A stretch of DNA of 64,000 nucleotides from the human T2T-CHM13v2.0 reference genome, Homo sapiens: positions 23,264,001 to 23,328,000 of the forward strand of contig CP068257.2 in assembly GCA_009914755.4 (NCBI GenBank), given 5' to 3'. The notes beneath the pieces are model-generated. The model was not told the origin of the DNA, searched no databases, and saw only the letters and a program-made list of their open reading frames with translations. Shown here piece by piece: positions 4,461 to 64,000 of the stretch. How positions within the stretch are numbered: position 1 is the stretch's first letter; each line of letters begins with the position of its first letter. The translations under genes were made by a program, and so were the position numbers.

Positions 4461-6420
4461 AAATCCTATTAATTATTCATTTTATTCCTCTTATATCATA
4501 CCGACCTCAGCCTGACAACATACCAGATTTCTCCCTTGTTCTAAGCTTTGGAGGGATAGATGAAATTCCTGATACATCACGTATGTCCTGATATGCTTGA
4601 TAGACCTTAAGTATTTATATTTAACAAAATGAAACCATGATCATTTTGAAGCAAAAGATATCTAAAGCTGGAATGAGAAACTTAAATGATTTCTTTATGA
4701 ATATGAGATAATTTACTTGGATGTCATTCTTAGAGTAGCTTAATTTTAAGGATATTTTTTCTTCTCTAACTATACTAAATCAACAGTGGAAAAATCCCTA
4801 AACTCTGGAGGTGTTTTTATCTTACCAGTCTATCTAAGACACACTCAATCATAGTCGCTATTGAATTTGGCATTTCAATTCTTCACTGTCACTTCTCATT
4901 AATTATTGGTTCTAATACTGTCTTTGATGACTTCTTCCTTGTCATTTTACTTCATGAACTCATTATTTCTAATTGCTATTTTATGCCACTTTTTGGTTCA
5001 TCAGTTTTTAATGTTCCACTTAATTGGCTCCGTTGTTTAAATGATGTGAGGAAAAATGGGGTTAAATTTATCATTTATCTGATACATTCTGGTATGAGAG
5101 AGCTTAATTTGGTTGTTCCATTTTCTAGATAGAAAAAGTAAGGAAATATTTTCTGCATTCTATTCAGATTGTTATTGCTGAAGTCATCTTATACTATGAC
5201 CTTTTAAAATATTTTCAAAGGCTTTAGAAAAAAATTATAGGTACACTGACATTTGCTTATTGTGAAATGTTATATCATGTTCCTTTTTATGTTGTAATTT
5301 GTAGTATTCCACACGACAGATTTCTCTGTTAATCGTACATCAGGTCTCACACTCTTATAATTTAGCCAAGAATTAAAAAAAGACAAGTCAAAGAATTGGT
5401 TTTAACATGCCAAAATATGTCAGGGATATATCTGTGGATTTAAAGTTAAAGAAAAATTACTAGAAAAAATTGATAAATATTAAAGAAGTATTTAATGTTT
5501 ATAATAGTGCAATTTTTTACATAAAAAACAAAGTTTGTAAAATGTAAGCAGGGATATTTTATTGTTGATGTTAACTTAATGAAAATAAAAGTATGCATTT
5601 TATAAGACAAAGAATCTAAATCATAGTAAATCTAAAAATTCATTGATTTAAATACCATAATATTCTTAATTTATGAAACCCTCCTTCTAACAGATGGAAT
5701 TTAAATGTATGACTTGGCCATCTATCTTTGACTCTAAATGTATTTATATGAGTCCCACATGTTAAATTTATTCCTGGAGATTATCATGACCAATAGAAGA
5801 CTTTTACGTATGTGTCACAATAAGCATGAAATAATGTGATCTCTTTCTCCTTTATTATATACCTTTGCAGCCACCAGACTGCAGTATGTGACTTAATCCC
5901 ACAGAGATATTTTACACTGAAAGTTTGTCTTAAGTTGTCTTGCAAATCTTTTTGAACTCTATGCAAAATGGTTATTCTAATTCTCAGAGTACAGCCACAA
6001 GCTAGGTAGGTGTAGATCGTGACATATGGGCAAAAATATGGTGGGTGTCACTGGAACCACACTGGATAAAAGGAAATTTATCATCGCAAGTATCTTAAGA
6101 ATGAAAAATTTTGAGGCAGTATTTTATTATTTGCAATGAGTTTATATTAGTGAACTGACATATAAAATAAAATTTTATACAGCATATAATTGATTAAAAT
6201 CACACATACTTGGAAATTAAGCCCATGGGAAAGTTTTTGCAAAAACAAATTTTATGAGAATTTTTGACGTTGGTAAAATATTTATAACAAAAGTTAATAT
6301 TTATGGGGCTCTCTCAGAATTTTCAGTCTAAATGTAATAGGAAAACAAATTCCAATATATATCCAAGAATCGTAGAGAGCATGGCGACAATATCAGCACG
6401 GATTTCCAGTTAAAAATAAA

Positions 6421-20303: not shown

Positions 20304-22728
20304 TGATATGGCTTGGATCTGTGCCTGTACAAATTGCAATTCCAATTATAATACCCAGTGTTGGAGGAGGGGCCTGTTGGGAGGTGGTTGTATTGTATGG
20401 GGCAGATTTCCCACTTGGTGCTTTTCTCATGATCCAGTGAGTTATCATGAGATCTCGTTGTTTCAAAGTGTGTAGCACCTCCCCCACCCCTCTCTCTTGC
20501 TCCTACTCTGGCAAGTAAAATGTCCCTGCTTCCCCTTCACCTTCTGCCATGATTGTAAGTTTCCTGAGGCCTCCCCAGAAGTCAAGCAGATGCCAGCGTC
20601 ATGCATCTTGTCCAGCCTGCCAAACTGTGAGCCAATTAAACCTCTTTTCTTTATAAATTACCTGGTCTCAGGTATTTCTTTATAGCAATGAGAGAACAAT
20701 TCAATACAAAAAATTGGTATCAGGGGTGGAGTATTTCTATAAAGATACCTGAAAACATGGAAGCATCTTTGGAACTGGATAACAGGTAGAGGCTGGAAGA
20801 GTATGGAGGGCTCAGAAGAAGACAGGAAGAAGAGGGAAAATTTGGAACTTCCTAGAGAGTTGTTAAATTTTTGTGACCAAAATGCCAATAGTGATACCAA
20901 CAATGAAGTCCAGGCTGAGGACGTCTCAAATGGGAATGAGGAACTTATTGGGAACTGGAGCAAAGGACACATTTGTTACACCTTGGCAAAGACCTTGGTT
21001 GGATTGTTCCCCTGCCCTAGGGATCTGTGGAACTTTGACCTTGAGAGTGATGATTTAGGGTAACTGGCAGAAGAAATTTCTAACCATCGAAGTGTTCAAG
21101 TTGTGACCTGGCTATGTCTAACAACTTATGCTAACATGAGTGAGCAAAAAAATGACCTGAAACTGGAACTTATATTTAAAAAAGAAGCAAAGCATACAAA
21201 TTTGGAAAATTTACAGCCCAATAGAAAAGAAAAGTCTGTTTTCAGGGGAAGAGTTCAAGCTTGCTTCAGAAATTTGGATAAGTAAAAAGGAGCCAAGTGC
21301 TAATATCCAGGACAAAGGGGAAAAGGCCTTGAAGACATTTTAGGGACCTTCAGGGCAGCCCCTCCCATCACAGGCCTGAAGATTTAGAATGAAAGAATGG
21401 TTTGGGGTGCCAGGTCCAGTGCCCCACTGCCCTGAGCAGCATAAGGACATCACTCTCTGTGTGCCCACTGCTCTAGTCTCAGCTGTGGCTCAAAGGGACC
21501 CAGGCACAGCTTGGACCACTGCAAACCATAAATCTTGATGGCTTCCATGTGGTGTTAAGCCTGCAAGTGCACAAAATTTAAGAGTTGAGGCTTGGGAGCT
21601 TCTGCCTCAATTTCAGATGATGTATGGAAAAGCCTGGATGTCTAGACAGAAGCCTGCTGCATGGGCAGAGCCCTCATGGGGAACCTCTATGAGGGCACTG
21701 TGGAGGGGAAATGTGGGGTTGGATCCCCCACATAGAGTCCCCACTGGAGCACTGCCTGGTGGTGCAGTGAGAAGAGACCCATCATCCTCCAGACCCCAGA
21801 ATTGTAGACCCACTGGCAGTTTGCACCCTGCACCTGGGAGAGCCACAGGCATTCAACAACAGCCCATGACAGTAAACATGAGGGCTGAACCCTGAAAAGC
21901 CATAAAGGTGGAGCTTCCCAAGGCCTTGGGAGCTCACCTCTGGCCCCTGTGTGTCCTGGATGGAGACATGGAGTCAAAGGAGATTATTTTGAAGCTTTAC
22001 GGATTAATAACTGCCCTGCTGGGTTTCAGACTTGCATGGGGCCTGTATCCCTTTTGATTTGGCCAATTTCTTCCTTTTGGAACAAGAGTATTTGCCTAAT
22101 GCCTATAGCCCCATTTTATCTTGGGAGTAACTAACTTTTTTTTTATTTTTTTTATTTTACAGGCTCATAGGCCAACGGGGCTAGCCTTGTCTTAGATGAG
22201 ACTTTGGACTTTGGTCTTTTGAGTTAGTGCTAGAATGAGTTAAGATTTTGGGGGACTGTTGGGAGGGTATGACTGCATATTGCAAAGTGAGAAAGACATG
22301 AGATTTGGGAAGGACAATGGATGGAATGATATGGTTTGGATCTGTGTCCCTGCTCAAATCTCAGTCAAATTATAATCACCAATTTCAGAGGTGGGGCCTG
22401 GTGGTAGGTGGTTTGATCATGGGGGCATACTTCCCCCTTGGTGCTGTTCTCATGATATGGGTGAGTTGTGAGATCTGGTTGTTTAAAAGTGTATAGTACC
22501 TCCCCTGTCTCTCTGTTGCTCCTGCTCTGGTTATGTAAGATGTGCCTGCTTCCTCTTCACCTTCTGACATGATTGTAAGTTTCCTGAGGCCTCCCCAGAA
22601 GCCAAGCAGATGTCAGCATTATGCATCCTGTACAGCCTGTGAAGCCATGAGCCAATTAAAACTCTTTTCTTTATAAATTACCTAGTCTCAGGTGCTTATT
22701 TATAGCAATGCAAGAATGACCCAATACA
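20304..22728 (+). mobile_element. Full-length ERVL-MaLR element: MSTA-like 5' LTR (20304-20708), MST internal region (20709-22327), MSTA-like 3' LTR (22328-22728)
   Basis: Both LTRs begin tgatatgg(c/t)ttggatctgtg... and end ...gagccaattaaa(c)ctcttttctttataaattacct(g/a)gtctcaggt...atagcaatg.aagaa...caatacag. The internal region matches THE1/MST-int (taaattggtatcaggggtggagt...ctgaaaacatggaag...ggaacttcctagagagttgttaaatttttgtgaccaaaatgccaatagtgataccaacaatgaagtccaggctgagg...gatttgggaaggacaatggatggaatga). Flanks are cccac and gccac, a 5-bp TSD with 4/5 match. Confidence 0.85.
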
Positions 22729-44291: not shown

Positions 44292-44835
44292 GAACAATGT
44301 ATTAGTCAGGGTTCTCCAGAGACACAGAACCAATAGGATGTGTGTATATATAAAAGAGAGTTAATTAGGGAGAACTGGCTCACACAATTACAAGGTGAAG
44401 TCCCATGATAGGCCGTCTGCAAGGTGGGGAAAGAGATAAGCTGGTAGTAGCTCAGCCCAAAGCCTCAAAACCAGGGAGGATGACAGTGTAGCCTTTAGTC
44501 TGTGGCCAAAAGGCCCAAGGGCCCCCAGGAAGCTGCTGGTGCAAGTCCCAGAGTCCAAACGCTGTGGAACTTGGAGTGTGGTGTCCAAGGGCAGGAGAAG
44601 TGGAAGCAAGTGTCCAGCAGGGGAAGAAGAAAGAGAGTCAGAGCAGGAGCAAGAAAGAGGGAGTGCGAGAGGAGGTGCCACACACTTTTAAATGACCAGA
44701 TCTCTTGAGAACTCACTCACTCTCAGGTGAACAGCACCAATAGGATGATACTAAACCATTCATGCCCTCATAATCCAGACACCTCCCATCAGGCCCCATC
44801 TTTGACATTGGGGATTACAACTCAACACGAGATTT
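44292..44835 (-). mobile_element. ERVL-MaLR type solo LTR (MST/MLT-related)
   Basis: Starts (reverse complement of the LTR 3' end) tattagtcagggttctccagagacacagaaccaataggatgtgtgtatatat. Ends with the reverse complement of a MaLR LTR start ...gaggtgccacacacttttaaatgaccagatctcttgagaactcactcactctcaggtgaacagcaccaataggatgatactaaaccattcatgccc...cattggggattacaactcaacacgagatttgggcagaggc.... Confidence 0.6.
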
Positions 44836-45066
44836 GGGCAGAGGCAAATATACAAACTAGATCAAACATTTTTAATGAGCCAGATGTTTGTCACTGACGT
44901 CTTCTCAACGTCATCTCTGAGCACTATATGATGGTTTCTTATACACCCTGGAGAATGAGTCTTCCCTCTCCCCTCAAAATGCAGAGATTGGTCAAATAAC
45001 CATATTAGTATTGAATCTACTTAGTCAAAAGCAGGATGGGCCCTTCTGCAGCAAAGGGAAGGCACA

Positions 45067-45128
45067 TCTGTTTAATATGTAGGATATGGTGAATGTCTGT
45101 TTAATATGTAGGGTATGGTGAATGTCTC
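45067..45128. repeat. 31-bp tandem duplication
   Basis: tctgtttaatatgtagg(a/g)tatggtgaatg twice in tandem. Confidence 0.85.
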
Positions 45129-54020: not shown

Positions 54021-55648
54021 TCAGCAAAGTTTTTAATCATGTCAGAACTGTACTTATTTTTAAAGCTGCAAAAACATAAATAATCTATTCATTCCTCTTA
54101 GTCACTACTGAACAGGTAAAATAAAATATTTAGTATTATCCCACGCAAATGTGAAAAAGAGGGTGAACGCAAAGCATTGGCTGTTCCCAGGAGAGAGGCA
54201 ACTATGTCATTAAAGTTTGCATAATTGTTTTATCCATGAAGCAAAGAAAGGCAGTTGGGCTCTTTAATAACAAAAAAGGAAATACTGGATGATATACTAG
54301 TGACTGTGAAATAGTTCAGGGACTGTCATGCAGGAAATGAAATGAAATTGCCTACTTTGAAGTCTCTTGCCTTTGCTGTTCTTTCTGCTTGAAAATCTTT
54401 CTCCAAATACGCTTATGGCTTACCTTATCATAGCCACTGGAAGTCATTTTTTCACTGAGGGCTTCCAAAGTTGCCCTACATAACTTGCTAATTCTCTCTC
54501 ACACACACGCACAGTCACACTTCCTAGCTCCCTCTCTGCTTGTATTGCGTCATTTAGCACTTACTTCTACCTAATAGAGTATGTATTTTTCTTATTTTTC
54601 TTTTTTATTACCTCAAACCTACCTAAATGTGGGGCTCATAAAAGCAGGAATTTATATCTAATTTGCTCACTGCTAATCACCAATGCTCAAATCAGTACCT
54701 GGTAATGGTTAACAAATACTTCTTACATTAATAAATGATGAACAAGATATTTGTTTGGTTTTAACCCAAAGGGTTGAACAAAAATCCAGAAATAAATTGG
54801 AAGGTGGCAGATTAGGCTCATTGTAAAATATTAGGACTACATTCTGTCTCTTTATGAGTAAGTGGCTCCTCAGAACATGATTCTAACATACTTGAAGTTA
54901 CTATATGATCAACTGACAGAAGTAATTTCAAAAATTCTTGCAGATTGGATGAGAGGTTGATATTCTTTTCCTTAGTACAGAGAAACTTTGGTTATTCAGC
55001 AAAGGGAGAAAAAGATGTTCAAAGCACTACACACAAGCTACAATACTAAAATGAAGACTAGCTTTCCTGTTTAATCATAGTTCTCGTTAGTTTATTTCTA
55101 TTACTCAATCTAACTTGAAAACTTGCTTCTGTGAAACCTGAAAAATAAAAATTGAACCAAGAGAGAAGGTGAAGGAGATATGAGTTCTGGGAGCAGTGGT
55201 GGAGAACAAGAAAAACAAAGGAGAAACAGCAACTCATAGAGCCTTTTTTGCATTACTTATTGAGACAGATACAGTTTACAATGCTGACATTTGTCTTGAG
55301 AAAGAGAAAGAGAAGAAAAAATTTACTTATGACATGTTTTATTTTTCTAAAACTTTGAAAGGTTCAAAATTATCTTTATGCAGGTTTCACATATTAATTT
55401 AAAATCTTACTGACTTTGTGAAACGGTACAAAAATCAACAACAACAGCAACAAAAATAACTTGAACTCAATAAATGCCACTTGAATCAGCAAAGACCCAC
55501 GTGTGTGGTTCTGTCAAATCCCCTTGCTGCAATAGCTCTGCCAATTTACTTGACAAATGTGTAGCCCTGGACTTTCACCCCTTGTTTAACAGAACAATTT
55601 GAAGATGATACTTTAGAAGTCTTTCAGATCATTAGATGGTTATTTTTG

Positions 55649-55853
55649 CAGAAGCAAAGGAGAGAGAAGGAGGTGCTACACACATTTCAAAAACCAGGTC
55701 TTGTGATAACTCACTCACTCACTCACTATCATGAGAACAGCACCAAGGAGGAGGTGTTAAACCATTCATCACGGACCACCCGCATGATCCACTCACCTCC
55801 CACCAGGCCCCACCTCCAATATTGGGGATTACAATTCAACATGAGATTTGGGC
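55649..55853 (-). repeat. Inverted, near-identical (about 98.5%) partial copy of the downstream MSTA LTR 5' region
   Basis: gcagaagcaaaggagagagaaggaggtgctacacacatttcaaaaaccaggtcttgtgataactcactcactcactcactatcatgagaacagcaccaaggaggaggtgttaaaccattcatcacggaccacccgcatgatccactcacctcccaccaggccccacctccaatattggggattacaattcaacatgagatttgggc is the reverse complement of 56454-56656, with 3 substitutions and one ACTC-unit indel. Confidence 0.85.
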
Positions 55854-56428
55854 TATCAGCTTGGGAAAAAATACTATCAGCTTGGAAAAAAAACTATTTT
55901 GTACTTTGCTTTTTTAAAGCACAAAAATAAATAGGAGTTATACATTTAACATTTTCAACATTCAGGAAAATAAAATATTAATTTCTCTTTTTCATAAACC
56001 AAATGCATTTTAGGCTCAGTTCTTCTCTATCTCTTATTTCATGGCTACTACTGTGTTTTTCCAACTAGGCCAAGAGTAAAACATTGCTGAATTTTTATAA
56101 TAATACAAACCTCATTCCCTATATATTTTCACAGGAAAAAAAATCTTTTTGGCGATAAAAAAATTTCATCATTACCCTGATGTCATGAAATTATATTCTG
56201 CTGAATTGACCAGAGAAAGACATTGTGCATAAGGCATGGTAGATCCATTAAAATTCAAATAAACACATTCAATTTTAAGGTGAAATTTGTTCATTTGCAT
56301 TTTTTTATAATTAGTAGTCATGGAGGATAATACTTTGATGACATACTAATAAAAATACATCCACAATAATGTATTATTACTAGACTTCTCTTTATTTCTA
56401 ACAACATAACAAACACTGTGATAATGAC

Positions 56429-57412
56429 TGATATGGTTTGGATCTGCGTCCCTGCCCAAATCTCATGTTGAATTGTAATCCCCAATATTGGAGGTGGGGC
56501 CTGGTGGGAGGTGAGTGGATCATGCGGGTGGTCCGTGATGAATGGTGTAGCACCTCCTCCTTGGTGCTGTTCTCATGATAGTGAGTGAGTGAGTTATCAC
56601 AAGACCTGGTTTTTGAAATGTGTGTAGCACCTCCTTCTCTCTCCTTTGCTCCTGCTCTGGCAGTGTAAGATGTGCCTGCCTTCCTGTCTCCTAATCATGA
56701 TTGTAAGTTTCCTGAGGCCCTCCTCAGAAGCAGAAGCTGCTATGCCTCCTGGACAGCCTGCAGAACCATGAGCCAATTAAACCTCTTTTCTTTATAAACT
56801 ACCCAATCTGAGGTAATTCTTTTTTTTAAATTTTATTTTATTTTAAGTTCTGGGGTGCACGTGCAGGATGTGCAGGTTTGTTACATAGGTAAACATGTGC
56901 ACGTGGCTTGCTGCACCTATCTACCCATCACCTTGGTATTAAGCCAGGCGTGCATTAGCTGTTTTTCCTGATGATCTCTCACTCCTCCCCGTCTCCCACT
57001 AGTCCCCAGTGTGTGTTGTTCTCCTTCCTGTGTTCATGTGTTCTCATTTTTTGACTCCCACTTATAAGTGAGAACATGCAGTGTTTGGTTTTCTGCATTG
57101 CTGTGCTGAGGATGATAGCATCTGGCTCCATCCATGTCCCTGCAAAGGACATGAGCTCATTCATTTTTATGGCTGCATAGTATTCCATAGTGTGTATGTA
57201 CCACATTTTCTTTATCTAGTTTATCATTGATGGGCATTTGGATTGATTCCATGTCTTTGCTATTGTGAATAGTGCTGCAACCAACATATGTATGCATGTA
57301 TCTTTATAGTAGAATGATTTATATTCCTTTGGGTATACACCCAGTAATGGGATTATCAAGTCAAATGGTATTTCATAGCACTGCAAGAACAGACTAACAC
57401 AATGCCTTTTTG
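56429..57412 (+). mobile_element. Solo MSTA LTR (ERVL-MaLR), interrupted near its 3' end by an L1 fragment
   Basis: tgatatggtttggatctgcgtccctgcccaaatctcatgttgaattgtaatccccaatattggaggtggggcctggtgggaggtgagtggatcatg...ccatgagccaattaaacctcttttctttataaactacccaatctgaggtaattc (56429-56816), then resuming ...atagcactgcaagaacagactaacacaatg (57380-57412) after the L1. Confidence 0.8.
56817..57379 (-). mobile_element. L1PA-like 3' end fragment (about 560 bp) inserted into the MSTA LTR
   Basis: Poly-T, then reverse-complement L1 3'UTR and ORF2 end: aagttctggggtgcacgtgcaggatgtgcaggtttgttacataggtaaacatgtgcacgtggcttgctgcacc...ttttatggctgcatagtattccatagtgtgtatgtaccacattttctttatctagtttatcattgatgggcatttggattgattccatgtctttgctattgtgaatagtgctgc...cccagtaatgggattatcaagtcaaatggtatttc. 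Confidence 0.9.
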
Positions 57413-59940
57413 CACACATTATTTCTAATTATCAAAACAACTCAGACAGATCATAATCTTTGATTTACAAATGAGGAAACTTAAACTCTAAAGATTAATT
57501 GGAAGCTCATATAGCAAAAAGGGAGGTATGATCAGAATTTGAAACTAAGTCTTATTGATTCAGTAGTTATAATATTTATTAGTAGTTATTTGGTAATATC
57601 AATGAAATGGATAAACTGGTTAGCTAGCCTAACCAAAAATTAAACAAACAAATAAAGAAGACACAAATTACTAATACCAGGAATGGAAGAAGGGTCATCA
57701 CTACTGTCTCATAGATGCAAAAAGAATAATAAAGGCATATTATGAACAATTCTATGACCACACATATAACTTTGATGATATGTACCAATTAACTGAAAAG
57801 CACAATTTGTCAAAACTGACACAAGAATATGTAATTAGAATAGCTCTATATCTATTTTTAAAATTGAATCAATAATTAATAACCTTCCAAAAAATAAAGC
57901 GCTAAAACTGATGGTTTCAATGTTGGATCTTACCAAACATTTAAGAAAGAAGTGATAGTAAACCACAATCCCCAAAAAATAAAATTGGAAAGGACACTTC
58001 CTAATATATTCTATGAGGCAGCATTATCTTAATCTCAAAATCAGATAAAGACATTACAGAAAAGGAAAACAAGGGACCAATATCTCTGATGAACATAAAT
58101 GAAAATTTTCTCAACAAAGTATGAGCAAAGAAAATCTAACGATATATAAAAACGTATACACCAGGGCCAAGTGGGATTTGTTGTAGATTTGCAGGGCTGG
58201 TTCAACATTCAGCAGTCAGTTAATATAATGCACCATATTAACAGATGAAAGAAGAAATATCACATAAGCATATCAATAGGTGCAGAAAATGCATTTGACA
58301 AAATGCAATAGCCACTTGTGATAAGATATCTCAGAAAACTAAGACTAGAACTCACTGAAGTTGGAAAAATAAAATCTATAAAAACCTATAGCTAACAGCA
58401 TACTTAATGGTAGAAACTGGACAATTTCTTTCTGTGGTTGGGAATAAGGCAAGGATGTTTTCTCTCATCACTCCTATTCAATTCTATGATGGAAGTCCTA
58501 GAAAATGCAATTAAAAGAGGAAGGGTAATACAACATATAGAGATTGGGAAAGAATAAATAAAACTGTGTTTGTTTGTAGATGACATGGGTTGTCTGTGTA
58601 AAAAATCCCAAAGAACTAACAAAATTACTCCTGGGACTAAAAAGCAATTACTGCAAGATTGTATAATACAACCTTATAAATACACAATAGTCAAATTATA
58701 TTTATGTATAGCCTGTAATAAACAAATATAATTTGAAATTAGAAGCATTTTGGTTCAATTATACAAATATATACAAGATCTGTATGAGTAAAACTACAAA
58801 GCTCAGATAAAACAACAAAGATATCTAAATAAAAAAATAGATGTTCCATGTTTATGAATAGAAAGGCCTAATATAGTTAAGAAGCTAATTGTTTACAACT
58901 TGATCTAGATACAAACAATCGCAACCCAAAATTCTAGAAAGTCATTTTGTGGACATCAGCAAATGACTCTAAAGTTTATATGAAAAGAAAAAAGATGCAG
59001 AATAGCCAACACAATACTGAAAAAAAGGAAAAAACTTATAATACTAAACTCCTGGAGTTTATAAATTACATAAAGGTACATTAGTCGAGACAGTGTGATA
59101 CAGGCAAAAGGCTAGAAGAATGGAAGAACAGGTCAATGGAAAACAATACAGAGCTCAGAAACAGACCCAAACAAATACCATTAACTAATCTTTGAGAAAG
59201 GAACAAAGGCAATTCCATTGAGAAAGGATAATCTTTTCAACAAATGGTGCTGCAACAACTGGACATGACCAGAGCAAAGAGATTATTACAGACCTAATTA
59301 AGGACTTTGGACCTCCAGACAAACGCAATCTTTGCTGAGAATGGAACTGCCTGTAAGTAAGTTCTAAAGATGTGTTCTGCAGCCTAGTGTCTACAGTTAA
59401 CAATACAGTGCTGGGCACGTCAAAATTTGTTAAGAAGGCTCATCTCATGTTAAGTGTTCTCGCCACAAAAACAAAAACATAGGGGCACAAGAAAGCTTTG
59501 GGAGGTGACGGTTACATCTGTAACCTCAAATGTACTGATGCTATCACAGGTGTTTGCATATACTGAAACTCACCAAATTGTCCACATTAAATATGTGTAG
59601 TTATTTGTATATCAATTACACCTCATTAAAGCTGTTAACAAAAGAATCAATGTGATGATTTGCATAGGAGAACATACATAATTCAGGTTATAAGGCAAGA
59701 AAGGCCAGTGGGAATGTGAATTCCTATGATCACCTCACACAAATTAAATATGGGGTTCTAGACTCTGAGATAAATTCCAGAGCGCTCTCACTAATAACTA
59801 ATTGATCGCCTAATGATCTCTTCAGTGAAATGAGGATTTCTTGAAGAAATACATGAGTTTGTAATGACTCCCTGCCTGCTGAAAGCCTTCCAATCCCCAA
59901 ACTGAGTGGACCCAGTGAAGACAAAACAGTGATATATTTC

Positions 59941-63032: not shown

Positions 63033-64000
63033 CTTCTTGATTAAAAAACAGTAATGTTCCAACCTTTGGGTAGGAAATATTTAGGGTTTTATAACCTGAG
63101 CAGAATGATTTTAAGATGAGTGTTTCAAAGGAGGAAACTGGTTGAAATTAGGTATAGTTTTTGAATTACTAGATCTAGATTAGTGATCACAGTGAGGAGT
63201 GGGTCTTAAAGGGGGATTTGACAAGAAGATATGTCAGCCTGCCATATGTTTTCATATGGTCTGGGAGAAAAGGCTTGTGGCTGCATTTACAGTCTTGTCT
63301 TCAACAATTAAATATTTCTTGCAACAAGTAATTAAGACATTTTTGCTTGATTCCAATATTGTTTGACATAGGGACATGTAAATATGTTCATCATATATAT
63401 TGCTTAACAGAAGGGCAGAAAAGTATGCCTGGACCTGGCATGACTTAACACAGAGAGAAAAAAAATGTTTGTATTAATGCTCACTGACACTTTTTGTCAT
63501 GCTTTTGGTCATGCCTAAGATATACCATTATCTTATGAACTACCTTAGTCTGTTTTGTATTGCTACACACAAATACCTGAGATGAGTAATTTATAGAGAA
63601 AAGTGGTTTATTTAGCTCATGGTTCTGCAGGCTGGACAGTTCAAGGACATGGCCATGATTTCTGGCAAGGTCTTCTGTGCTGCATCATAACATGGCAGAG
63701 AAGGTCAAAATGGAAGCAGTTATGTGTGAAGAGGAAAAACCTAAGAGGCATCCTGGCTTGATAGCAACTCATTCTCAAGGGAATTCATTAAGTTCCATGA
63801 GAACTTATTCAGTCTTGCCAGAGTGAGAACTCATTCACTACCATGAGAAGGGCACTAAGCCATCAGGAGAGATTTACTCCAATGATTCAGACAATTCTCA
63901 CTAGGCTCCACTTCCCAAGACTGCCATTTCAGGGATCAAATTTCAACATGAGGTTTGGTGGGAACAAACTCAAACCAAATCACAGCATGAGGATATGATC

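What the first reader, a model, noticed from the sequence alone, without database searches (positions are those of the whole stretch)
55649..56656. Recent inverted duplication of 205 bp of an ancient MSTA LTR (about 98.5% identity, 600-bp spacer) with a 22-bp tandem duplication at the breakpoint
MSTA LTRs are tens of Myr old and unrelated copies usually differ by 10-20%. Here 55649-55853 is the reverse complement of 56454-56656, with only 3 substitutions and one ACTC-unit slip. That indicates a much younger segmental inverted duplication, or gene conversion, of part of the solo LTR into a site 600 bp upstream.

The left copy's breakpoint is followed by a tandem duplication, tatcagcttgggaaaaaatac / tatcagcttggaaaaaaaactat (55854-55897). 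This is the kind of junctional scar left by template-switching replication repair or NHEJ.

Inverted repeats of this size and spacing can extrude hairpins or cruciforms and are prone to deletion or inversion. If transcribed, they form dsRNA.
Basis: seen in the sequence. Interest (0 to 1): 0.55.

Follow-up and report, generated by a model that had tools for sequence, protein, structure and literature searches.

The report
Young inverted copy of LTR fragment
A 206-bp internal piece of an old retrotransposon LTR was copied upside-down 600 bp upstream a few million years ago, most likely when DNA synthesis switched templates; this is a real but ordinary mutational relic with no sign of function.

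Summary
55648-55853 is the reverse complement of 56454-56655, with 3 substitutions and one ACTC-unit slip (199/202 = 98.5%) and a 600-nt spacer. It is the only repeat pair above 90% identity in the 64-kb window.

The right arm lies inside a bona fide solo MaLR (MST-like) LTR at 56429-56820 + 57375-57401. That LTR has TG..CA ends and an ATGAC/ATGCC target-site duplication, and it is split by an antisense L1 3' fragment. The left arm is an internal fragment (LTR positions 26-227) with no LTR ends, no target-site duplication and no residual LTR homology beyond its edges.

Independent copies of the family are only 67-79% identical to the arm. The two arms share 31 differences from the family consensus.

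The best reading is a local DNA-templated inverted duplication (a template switch, four-point type 1-4-3-2, or snap-back repair). It dates to roughly 7-15 Myr ago (95% range 1.5-43).

A 21/20-nt tandem duplication abuts the inner breakpoint more closely than chance predicts (p about 0.003), so it is probably linked to the event.

Primate orthologues could not be retrieved, so lineage and polymorphism remain untested. This is a new member of a known kind, of low interest.

The parts
55648..55853 (-). Left arm: inverted copy of LTR positions 26-227 (206 nt). An internal LTR fragment without LTR termini or a target-site duplication.
   Evidence: 199/202 identical to the reverse complement of 56454-56655; flanks show no LTR homology.
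56454..56655 (+). Right arm: the source segment, inside the solo LTR.
   Evidence: It is contiguous with LTR positions 1-25 upstream and 228 onward downstream.
55854..56453 (.). 600-nt spacer. It is AT-rich unique sequence; its last 25 nt (56429-56453) are the 5' end of the LTR.
   Evidence: no other copy in the window or in 288 kb of human-like contigs.
55853..55897 (+). Tandem duplication abutting the inner breakpoint: CTATCAGCTTGGGAAAAAATA / CTATCAGCTTGGAAAAAAAA / CTAT. It is bounded by CTAT microhomology and shares 1 nt (C 55853) with the arm.
   Evidence: (D2).
56429..56820 (+). Solo MaLR (MST-like) LTR, 5' part. It starts TGATATGG.
   Evidence: aligns over its full length to other MaLR LTRs in the window.
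57375..57401 (+). Solo LTR, 3' end (ATAGCACTGCAAGAACAGACTAACACA), ending in CA.
   Evidence: Compare the 3' ends of copy20k and copy63k and of both provirus LTRs.
56821..57374 (-). 5'-truncated L1 3' fragment inserted antisense into the LTR, with its poly-T at 56822. It lies outside the duplicated segment.
   Evidence: Sequence read. Recognised as L1 from my own knowledge of the L1 3' end; not tested with a repeat library.
56424..56428 (+). Left target-site duplication of the solo LTR (ATGAC).
   Evidence: It matches ATGCC at 57402-57406, 4 of 5.
57402..57406 (+). Right target-site duplication of the solo LTR (ATGCC).
55709..55727 (+). (ACTC)4.8 microsatellite in the left arm. The right arm has (AGTG)3.8 at 56580-56594. 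The one-unit difference is the only indel between the arms.
56428..56433 (+). CTGATA at the LTR 5' edge. Its reverse complement, TATCAG, equals the first 6 nt to the right of the left arm. It is a possible switch-back microhomology, but only if 20 nt were later lost from the copy.
   Evidence: chance p about 0.02, post hoc.

Best explanation
A solo MaLR (MST-type) LTR inserted tens of millions of years ago and decayed. Much later, one DNA-level event copied an internal 202-206-nt stretch of it (LTR positions 26-227) in reverse-complement orientation into unique sequence 600 bp upstream.

The geometry is that of a local template switch. A growing + strand that stopped near 55647 used the + strand about 1 kb ahead as template, reading 56655 down to 56454, and then returned to its original template at about 55854. 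This is four-point type 1-4-3-2. An equivalent route is a resected 3' tail at a break snapping back on itself, priming at the LTR and then being re-joined.

The 21-nt tandem duplication at the return junction is most likely a second slip of the same event, or else the fragile site where it began.

Since then each arm has drifted independently: one polarisable substitution on each arm, a third that cannot be polarised, and one microsatellite slip.

The result is a mutational relic. It can form a roughly 200-bp stem in single-stranded DNA or RNA, but no function is indicated.

Shown: the structure, the direction of copying (right to left) and the relative age. Inferred: the molecular mechanism and whether the tandem duplication was simultaneous.
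For: - Arms are 98.5% identical over 202 nt and are the only pair above 90% identity in the window.
- Independent family copies are far more diverged: 72-76% in the window and 67-79% for 30 copies from human-like metagenome contigs.
- The arms share 31 of 171 differences from the consensus of those copies.
- The right copy is a complete LTR with TG..CA ends and a 4/5 target-site duplication. The left copy is an internal fragment.
- Homology stops abruptly at both ends of the left arm. Flank alignments score no better than shuffles, while a 75%-identical old copy scores 96 against 11 as a positive control.
- Source and copy lie 600 bp apart. That is expected for local template switching and very improbable for genome-wide RNA or fragment capture.
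- The orientation and order of switch points fit the published type 1-4-3-2, which creates an inverted repeat (PMC5453318).
- Two of the three substitutions can be polarised with other copies: one is derived on each arm. This is real post-duplication drift, not an assembly copy.
- The tandem duplication abuts the breakpoint. With about 11 comparable arrays in 64 kb, chance adjacency is about 0.002-0.004.
- Internal clock: the two LTRs of a MaLR provirus in the same window differ by JC 0.18, against 0.015 for the arms.
Against: - No outgroup or empty site could be obtained, so the ancestral state is inferred rather than seen.
- Junction microhomology is weak: 0 or 4 nt (GCAG) at the outer junction and 1 nt at the inner junction.
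- The 6-nt TATCAG match requires an extra 20-nt loss and has only p about 0.02.
- The tandem units differ by 2 of 21, more than the arms do (binomial p = 0.04, Fisher p = 0.07). The duplication may therefore predate the event.
- The copied length (202 nt) and distance (600-1000 nt) exceed what published great-ape template-switch scans report: median 12 nt, maximum 128 nt. Those scans searched only +/-100 nt (PMC7954356).
- Arm-to-arm gene conversion could make the pair look younger than it is.
Confidence: 0.8

Rival explanations
1. Gene conversion. An old, independently inserted, inverted MaLR fragment already sat at 55648-55853 and was recently overwritten by the right LTR, erasing its divergence.
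For: Inverted repeats a few hundred bp apart can convert each other (established knowledge). The arm identity alone cannot separate this from duplication.
Against: A conversion tract normally lies inside older homology. Here identity falls from 98.5% to background exactly at both ends (9/40 and 10/40 matching flank bases; gapped scores no better than shuffles). The left copy has neither LTR terminus nor a target-site duplication. BLAST with other MaLR copies also stops at 55648 and 55853.
Confidence: 0.07
2. RNA-derived or free-fragment patch. A reverse-transcribed piece of a transcript crossing the LTR, or an excised DNA fragment, was captured at a double-strand break (class 2 templated sequence insertion), or inserted by L1 machinery (class 1).
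For: Class 2 insertions lack a target-site duplication and poly(A) and show end-joining features at the junctions (PMC5110952). The left arm likewise has no target-site duplication and little microhomology. TTATTTTT lies at the outer junction.
Against: Such inserts come from distant regions spread over the chromosomes. A random landing within 1 kb of the source has a prior of about 1e-6. There is no target-site duplication, no poly(A) tail, and no AATAAA-like signal 10-30 nt before the end of the copied segment (sequence), so class 1 is not met.
Confidence: 0.05
3. Assembly artefact: a chimeric or fold-back read placed an inverted copy into the assembly.
For: One comparable young inverted repeat in the harvested metagenome contigs sits at a contig end (L062), the typical position for assembler artefacts.
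Against: The arms differ by 3 substitutions and a microsatellite unit, with derived changes on both arms. The copy is embedded in unique sequence on both sides, 8 kb from the window end. Artefactual copies would be identical.
Confidence: 0.03
4. Two independent retrotransposon insertions of the same subfamily in opposite orientation.
For: MaLR LTRs are abundant, with at least five other copies in this window.
Against: Independent copies are 67-79% identical. Even the two LTRs of one provirus, identical at insertion, are now only 84% identical. The arms share 31 private differences. The left copy lacks termini and a target-site duplication.
Confidence: 0.01

Closest known systems
Template-switch mutations, four-point model type 1-4-3-2 (Loytynoja & Goldman 2017, PMC5453318; Walker et al. 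2021, PMC7954356)
   Same: [quoted passage not shown] The order of switch points is 1-4-3-2. There is neither a target-site duplication nor a poly(A).
   Different: Published ape events have a median 2->3 fragment of 12 nt (maximum 128) and were sought within about +/-100 nt. Here the fragment is 202 nt and lies 600-1000 nt from the insertion point.
FoSTeS / MMBIR complex rearrangements and snap-back templated insertions at repaired breaks
   Same: Replicative or repair synthesis on a wrong nearby template, an inverted orientation, and small extra templated duplications at junctions. This comparison rests on established knowledge, not on a test here.
   Different: Those events are usually kb-Mb copy-number changes (FoSTeS/MMBIR) or insertions under 30 nt (polymerase-theta snap-back). 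This one is intermediate in size, and its junction microhomology is weak.
Inverted-repeat Alu pairs (dsRNA substrates of ADAR1/MDA5; PMC12695637) and fragile Alu inverted repeats (PMC10164571)
   Same: Two inverted copies of a retroelement within 1 kb can pair within one strand. The predicted stem is about 200 bp.
   Different: Alu pairs arise from two separate insertions and are imperfectly paired. Here the pair arose by duplication and is 98.5% paired, with perfect runs of 56, 44 and 93 bp. Transcription is unknown. The 600-bp spacer makes cruciform extrusion from duplex DNA unlikely.
Large fold-back inverted duplications (PMC3907307)
   Same: An inverted duplication with a short single-copy spacer between the arms.
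   Different: Those are large terminal duplications formed through dicentric intermediates. This is a 206-nt interstitial insertion with normal sequence on both sides.

Membership tests
MaLR (ERVL-MaLR) MST/THE1-type solo LTR (right copy) | TG...CA termini | tested here: met
   Starts TGATATGG at 56429 and ends ...CTAACACA at 57401.
MaLR (ERVL-MaLR) MST/THE1-type solo LTR (right copy) | 5-bp target-site duplication | tested here: met
   ATGAC (56424-56428) and ATGCC (57402-57406), 4 of 5.
MaLR (ERVL-MaLR) MST/THE1-type solo LTR (right copy) | Full-length homology to other LTRs of the family, about 400 bp | tested here: met
   Length is 392 + 27 = 419 nt. It aligns end to end with the two LTRs of an in-window provirus and with other copies, and with 68 contigs sharing a 29-mer.
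MaLR (ERVL-MaLR) MST/THE1-type solo LTR (right copy) | Assignment to subfamily MSTA specifically | not testable with these tools
   No Dfam, Repbase or RepeatMasker is available. The resemblance to MSTA rests on memory only.
Template-switch mutation (four-point model, type 1-4-3-2) | The new fragment is the reverse complement of a nearby sequence | tested here: met
   199/202, with the source 600 nt away.
Template-switch mutation (four-point model, type 1-4-3-2) | Switch-point order 1-4-3-2 (insertion site upstream of an intact source) | tested here: met
   The insertion is at 55647/55854. The source at 56454-56655 is intact and contiguous within the LTR.
Template-switch mutation (four-point model, type 1-4-3-2) | Ancestral or outgroup sequence lacks the fragment | not testable with these tools
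   No primate genomes are available. Look-ups and scans for the locus found nothing.
Template-switch mutation (four-point model, type 1-4-3-2) | Microhomology at the switch points (usual, not obligatory) | tested here: inconclusive
   0 or 4 nt at the outer junction and 1 nt at the inner junction. A 6-nt TATCAG match lies 20 nt further along the source, chance p about 0.02.
Interlocus gene conversion between two old LTR copies | A pre-existing homologous acceptor extending beyond the converted tract | tested here: not met
   Flanks of the left arm show no LTR homology above shuffles. BLAST to other copies stops at the arm ends.
Independent LTR retrotransposon insertion (left copy) | LTR termini with a target-site duplication, and family-typical divergence | tested here: not met
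   The left copy covers LTR positions 26-227 only and has no target-site duplication. It is 98.5% identical, against 67-79% for independent copies.
L1-mediated templated insertion (class 1 TSIP) | Target-site duplication of at least 5 bp, a poly(A) tail, and a cryptic poly(A) signal 10-30 nt upstream (PMC5110952) | tested here: not met
   No flanking direct repeat, no tail attached to the copied segment, and no AATAAA/ATTAAA near the relevant end (sequence; criteria).
Known structured RNA / miRNA hairpin | Match to an Rfam family | tested here: not met
   No match at E <= 1 in 54500-58000, and none at gathering score in the whole window.

The most novel reading that the evidence does not exclude
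The locus may be a clean example of an intermediate-scale template switch: a 202-nt fragment copied from 0.6-1 kb away, with an extra 21-nt slip. Published short-range scans (+/-100 nt, maximum 128 nt) cannot see events of this size, and structural-variant callers rarely resolve them. If the region is transcribed into a mature RNA, the event would also have created in one step a near-perfect 200-bp RNA hairpin, far better paired than inverted Alu pairs. Such a hairpin could be an ADAR1/MDA5 or Dicer substrate.
Probability: 0.07. Interest if true: 0.45.

Novelty: new member of a known kind. Interest (0 to 1): 0.2.

Why it matters
On its own it matters little. It is one neutral-looking rearrangement in AT-rich, repeat-rich primate DNA.

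It has three modest uses:
- It is a worked example showing that local inverted template copying operates at the 200-nt / 1-kb scale, between the tens-of-nt events catalogued in great apes and kb-Mb FoSTeS/MMBIR events.
- It is a potential lineage marker, because the presence or absence of a 206-bp insert is essentially free of homoplasy.
- If it lies inside an expressed transcript, it is a nearly perfect long hairpin of the type that RNA-editing and dsRNA-sensing studies look for.

It also warns that repeat annotation would list two 'MST' fragments here without showing that one is a young DNA-level copy of the other.

Tried and rejected
1. Finding the same locus or an orthologue elsewhere failed.
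   - Three exact-protein look-ups used ORFs spanning the left junction, an internal start of that ORF, and the spacer/right-LTR junction. None is on record.
   - A unique 31-mer from the spacer was scanned in metagenome and bacterial/archaeal genome contigs. There were no matches.
   - A homology search with the 94-aa junction ORF found only two 45%-identical paralogues.
   - Dating by outgroup was therefore impossible.
2. The family 29-mer found nothing in genome contigs. It found 68 human-like contigs in metagenomes, which served as independent copies.
3. I tried to reconstruct the empty site from other copies of whatever repeat the flanks might belong to. The flanks and spacer are unique in the window and in the 288 kb harvested.
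4. I looked for a donor of the 21-nt tandem unit elsewhere in the window. There is none.
5. I considered a shared truncation hotspot, because the copy at 44639-44857 seemed to end near the same LTR position. This was rejected. That LTR continues with a different 3' half, so it belongs to another subfamily.
6. The Rfam search found nothing.
7. The first self-BLAST of the harvested loci timed out. It was repeated per locus.
8. The idea that the missing 20 nt of LTR and the extra 21-nt tandem unit replace one another was checked by eye on the, 40 strings. They match at 6 of 20 positions, which is chance level, so the idea was dropped.

Full report

Yes. The repeat finder reports two inverted pairs: 55713-55853/56454-56594 (141 nt, 99%) and 55648-55723/56580-56655 (76 nt, 99%). 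They are one repeat broken by a 4-nt offset. A gapped local alignment joins them. The left arm, 55648-55853 (206 nt), matches the reverse complement of 56454-56655 (202 nt). There are three substitutions and one extra ACTC unit in the left arm, giving 199/202 = 98.5% identity. Exactly 600 nt separate the arms.

The mismatching positions are 55652/56651, 55757/56550 and 55760/56547. The perfectly paired runs are 56, 44 and 93 bp.

In a self-comparison of the whole 64-kb window this is the only pair above 90% identity; the next best pairs are 88-90%.

The tandem duplication next to the left arm is also real. Tandem Repeats Finder gives 55853-55897, period 20-21, 2.2 copies, 92% matches. The units are CTATCAGCTTGGGAAAAAATA and CTATCAGCTTGGAAAAAAAA, followed by CTAT. 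That is 21 and 20 nt rather than 22. The first C (55853) is also the last base of the arm.

**2. What are the two copies?**

The window is primate DNA. It holds at least five Alu elements and is 36% G+C.

The right arm lies inside a complete solo LTR of the MaLR (MST/THE1-like) kind:
- It begins TGATATGG at 56429.
- It runs to 56820, where a 5'-truncated L1 3' fragment is inserted antisense (56821-57374, poly-T first).
- It resumes at 57375 and ends ...CTAACACA at 57401.
- It is flanked by ATGAC and ATGCC, a 4/5 target-site duplication.

It aligns end to end with other LTRs of the family in the window.

The arm corresponds to LTR positions 26-227. The left copy therefore has neither LTR end, and it has no target-site duplication. 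The subfamily name MSTA could not be tested, because no repeat library was available.

**3. How unusual is 98.5%?**

- Other copies in the same window are 72%, 76% and 75% identical to this LTR.
- A scan of metagenome contigs for a conserved 29-mer of the family returned 68 human-like contigs. The 30 that align over at least 170 nt of the arm are 67-79% identical, mean 72%.
- Against the consensus of those copies, the two arms share 31 differences in 171 comparable columns.
- The window also holds a full-length MaLR element: LTRs at 20304-20708 and 22327-22728, a 1.6-kb interior, and target-site duplication CCCAC/GCCAC. Its two LTRs were identical at insertion and are now 83.9% identical, JC distance 0.18.

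On the same local clock the arms (JC 0.015) are about 8% as old as that insertion.

Independent insertion is excluded. The left arm is a copy of this particular, already decayed LTR.

**4. Duplication or gene conversion?**

If an old inverted fragment had been overwritten, older homology should persist around the tract. It does not.
- The 40 nt outside each end match the expected continuation of the LTR at 9/40 and 10/40 positions.
- Gapped alignments of 100-150-nt flanks score no better than shuffles (282 and 126 of 300 shuffles reach the observed score).
- The positive control, the arm against a 75%-identical old copy, scores 96 against a shuffle mean of 11.
- BLAST hits of other family copies to the left locus also stop at 55648 and 55853.

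Gene conversion therefore remains possible only if the old fragment happened to have exactly these ends.

**5. Direction, age and drift**

The right copy is the source, because it is contiguous with the rest of a complete LTR. This also shows that the spacer is still in its original orientation relative to the LTR.

Two of the three substitutions can be polarised with copies that retain this segment (44k and 63k copies). The ancestral sequence was GGTTTAGC. The right arm changed T to G at 56547. The left arm changed G to A in LTR sense at 55757. Both arms have thus drifted since the event, which also argues against an assembly artefact. Both arms keep the same two CpGs.

Three substitutions in 202 nt give 7.5 Myr (95% range 1.5-22) at 1e-9 per site per year, or 15 Myr (3-43) at 0.5e-9. 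Arm-to-arm conversion could make this an underestimate.

**6. Mechanism**

The inserted strand is the reverse complement of sequence 600-1000 nt downstream. The source is intact, and there is no target-site duplication or poly(A). This is the geometry of a template switch. In the four-point model it is type 1-4-3-2, which creates an inverted repeat and makes up 31% of the confident human-chimp events (PMC5453318). It is equally the geometry of a resected 3' tail snapping back on itself during break repair. The data cannot separate the two routes.

Junction microhomology is weak. At the outer junction it is either none or GCAG, depending on whether 55652 is a substitution. At the inner junction it is one C.

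One detail is unexplained. The first six bases to the right of the arm, TATCAG, recur 20 nt further along the source continuation, where they are the reverse complement of CTGATA at 56428-56433, the LTR's 5' edge (chance p about 0.02, post hoc). If copying originally ran to the LTR edge and returned on this 6-nt microhomology, the copy has since lost 20 nt.

The tandem duplication is bounded by CTAT repeats, the classic signature of slippage. About 11 arrays of comparable type occur in 64 kb. One starting within a base of a breakpoint is therefore unlikely by chance (about 0.002-0.004), so the two features are probably linked. However, the units differ at 2 of 21 positions, both in the A run. 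That is more than the arms differ (binomial p = 0.04, Fisher p = 0.07). The duplication might be an older fragile site rather than a scar of the same event.

RNA-mediated or fragment-capture insertion (templated sequence insertions, PMC5110952) is unlikely. Those donors are distant and scattered, whereas this donor is 600 bp away. The class 1 features are absent.

**7. Consequences**

As single-stranded DNA the interval folds into a stem of about 200 bp, with minimum free energy -304.7 kcal/mol. RNA would do the same, and one of the three mismatches becomes a G-U pair.

Whether the locus is transcribed is unknown. No Rfam family matches.

In yeast, lengthening the spacer from 12 to 100 bp lowers inverted-repeat recombination 300-fold, and from 12 to 200 bp lowers rearrangements about 20-fold. 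Widely spaced repeats still interact in long single-stranded regions (PMC10164571).

For dsRNA sensing, most immunogenic dsRNAs are inverted Alu pairs in mature mRNAs, not in introns (PMC12695637). Any relevance here therefore depends on the genomic context, which I could not determine.

**8. Comparison with what is known, and verdict**

The event works like a template-switch mutation but is larger and longer-range than those catalogued in great apes. Those have a median of 12 nt and a maximum of 128 nt, and were searched within +/-100 nt (PMC7954356). It is much smaller than FoSTeS/MMBIR or fold-back duplications.

Young local inverted copies of this size are uncommon in the data at hand. There is one in this 64-kb window. 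There is one more in 288 kb of harvested human-like contigs, and it sits at a contig end, so it may be an artefact.

The finding is a correct observation with a correct main interpretation. It is a new member of a known kind of mutation and of low general interest. The decisive test is the orthologous sequence in other primates, and it could not be run here.

Noticed in passing
window 20304-22728: Full-length MaLR element on the + strand. Its LTRs at 20304-20708 and 22327-22728 are 83.9% identical (JC 0.18). It has a 1.6-kb interior and a target-site duplication CCCAC/GCCAC. It was used as an internal clock.
   Followed up: partly
window 44300-44857 (- strand): Another MaLR LTR. Its first roughly 230 nt resemble the MST-type LTR (75%), but its 3' half is different, so it belongs to another subfamily. 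Its apparent truncation near the same LTR position as the arm end is a coincidence of subfamily structure.
   Followed up: yes
window 63545-64000 (- strand): A further MaLR LTR in minus orientation, running to the window end. It has an 86% match to the last 65 nt of the solo LTR.
   Followed up: partly
window 56821-57374: An antisense 5'-truncated L1 3' fragment is inserted into the solo LTR about 27 nt before its end. No clear target-site duplication is seen. It lies outside the duplicated segment, so it gives no relative timing.
   Followed up: partly
window 56545-56577 and 56622-56654: A direct repeat inside the LTR (GTGTAGCACCTCCT..., 76% over 33 nt). It is also visible as inverted pair I6 with the left arm. 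One of the arm differences (56547) lies in the first copy.
   Followed up: no
window 55636-55652: The outer junction reads TTATTTTTGCAG|AAG, a polypyrimidine tract plus CAG that looks like a splice acceptor. It was not examined further, and the gene context is unknown.
   Followed up: no
L062 4477-4650 vs 6053-6225: A 174-nt, 99.4% inverted repeat in a human-like metagenome contig, with one arm exactly at the contig end. It is probably an assembly artefact.
   Followed up: no
L001-L068 (metagenome contigs): 68 metagenome contigs, several labelled human skin metagenome, carry primate MaLR LTR sequence. This is host DNA in metagenome assemblies. The same 29-mer found none in the bacterial/archaeal species genomes.
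   Followed up: partly
window 45067-45127: A 29-nt tandem duplication (2.1 copies, 96%) in unique-looking sequence. It is another small young duplication in the window.
   Followed up: no
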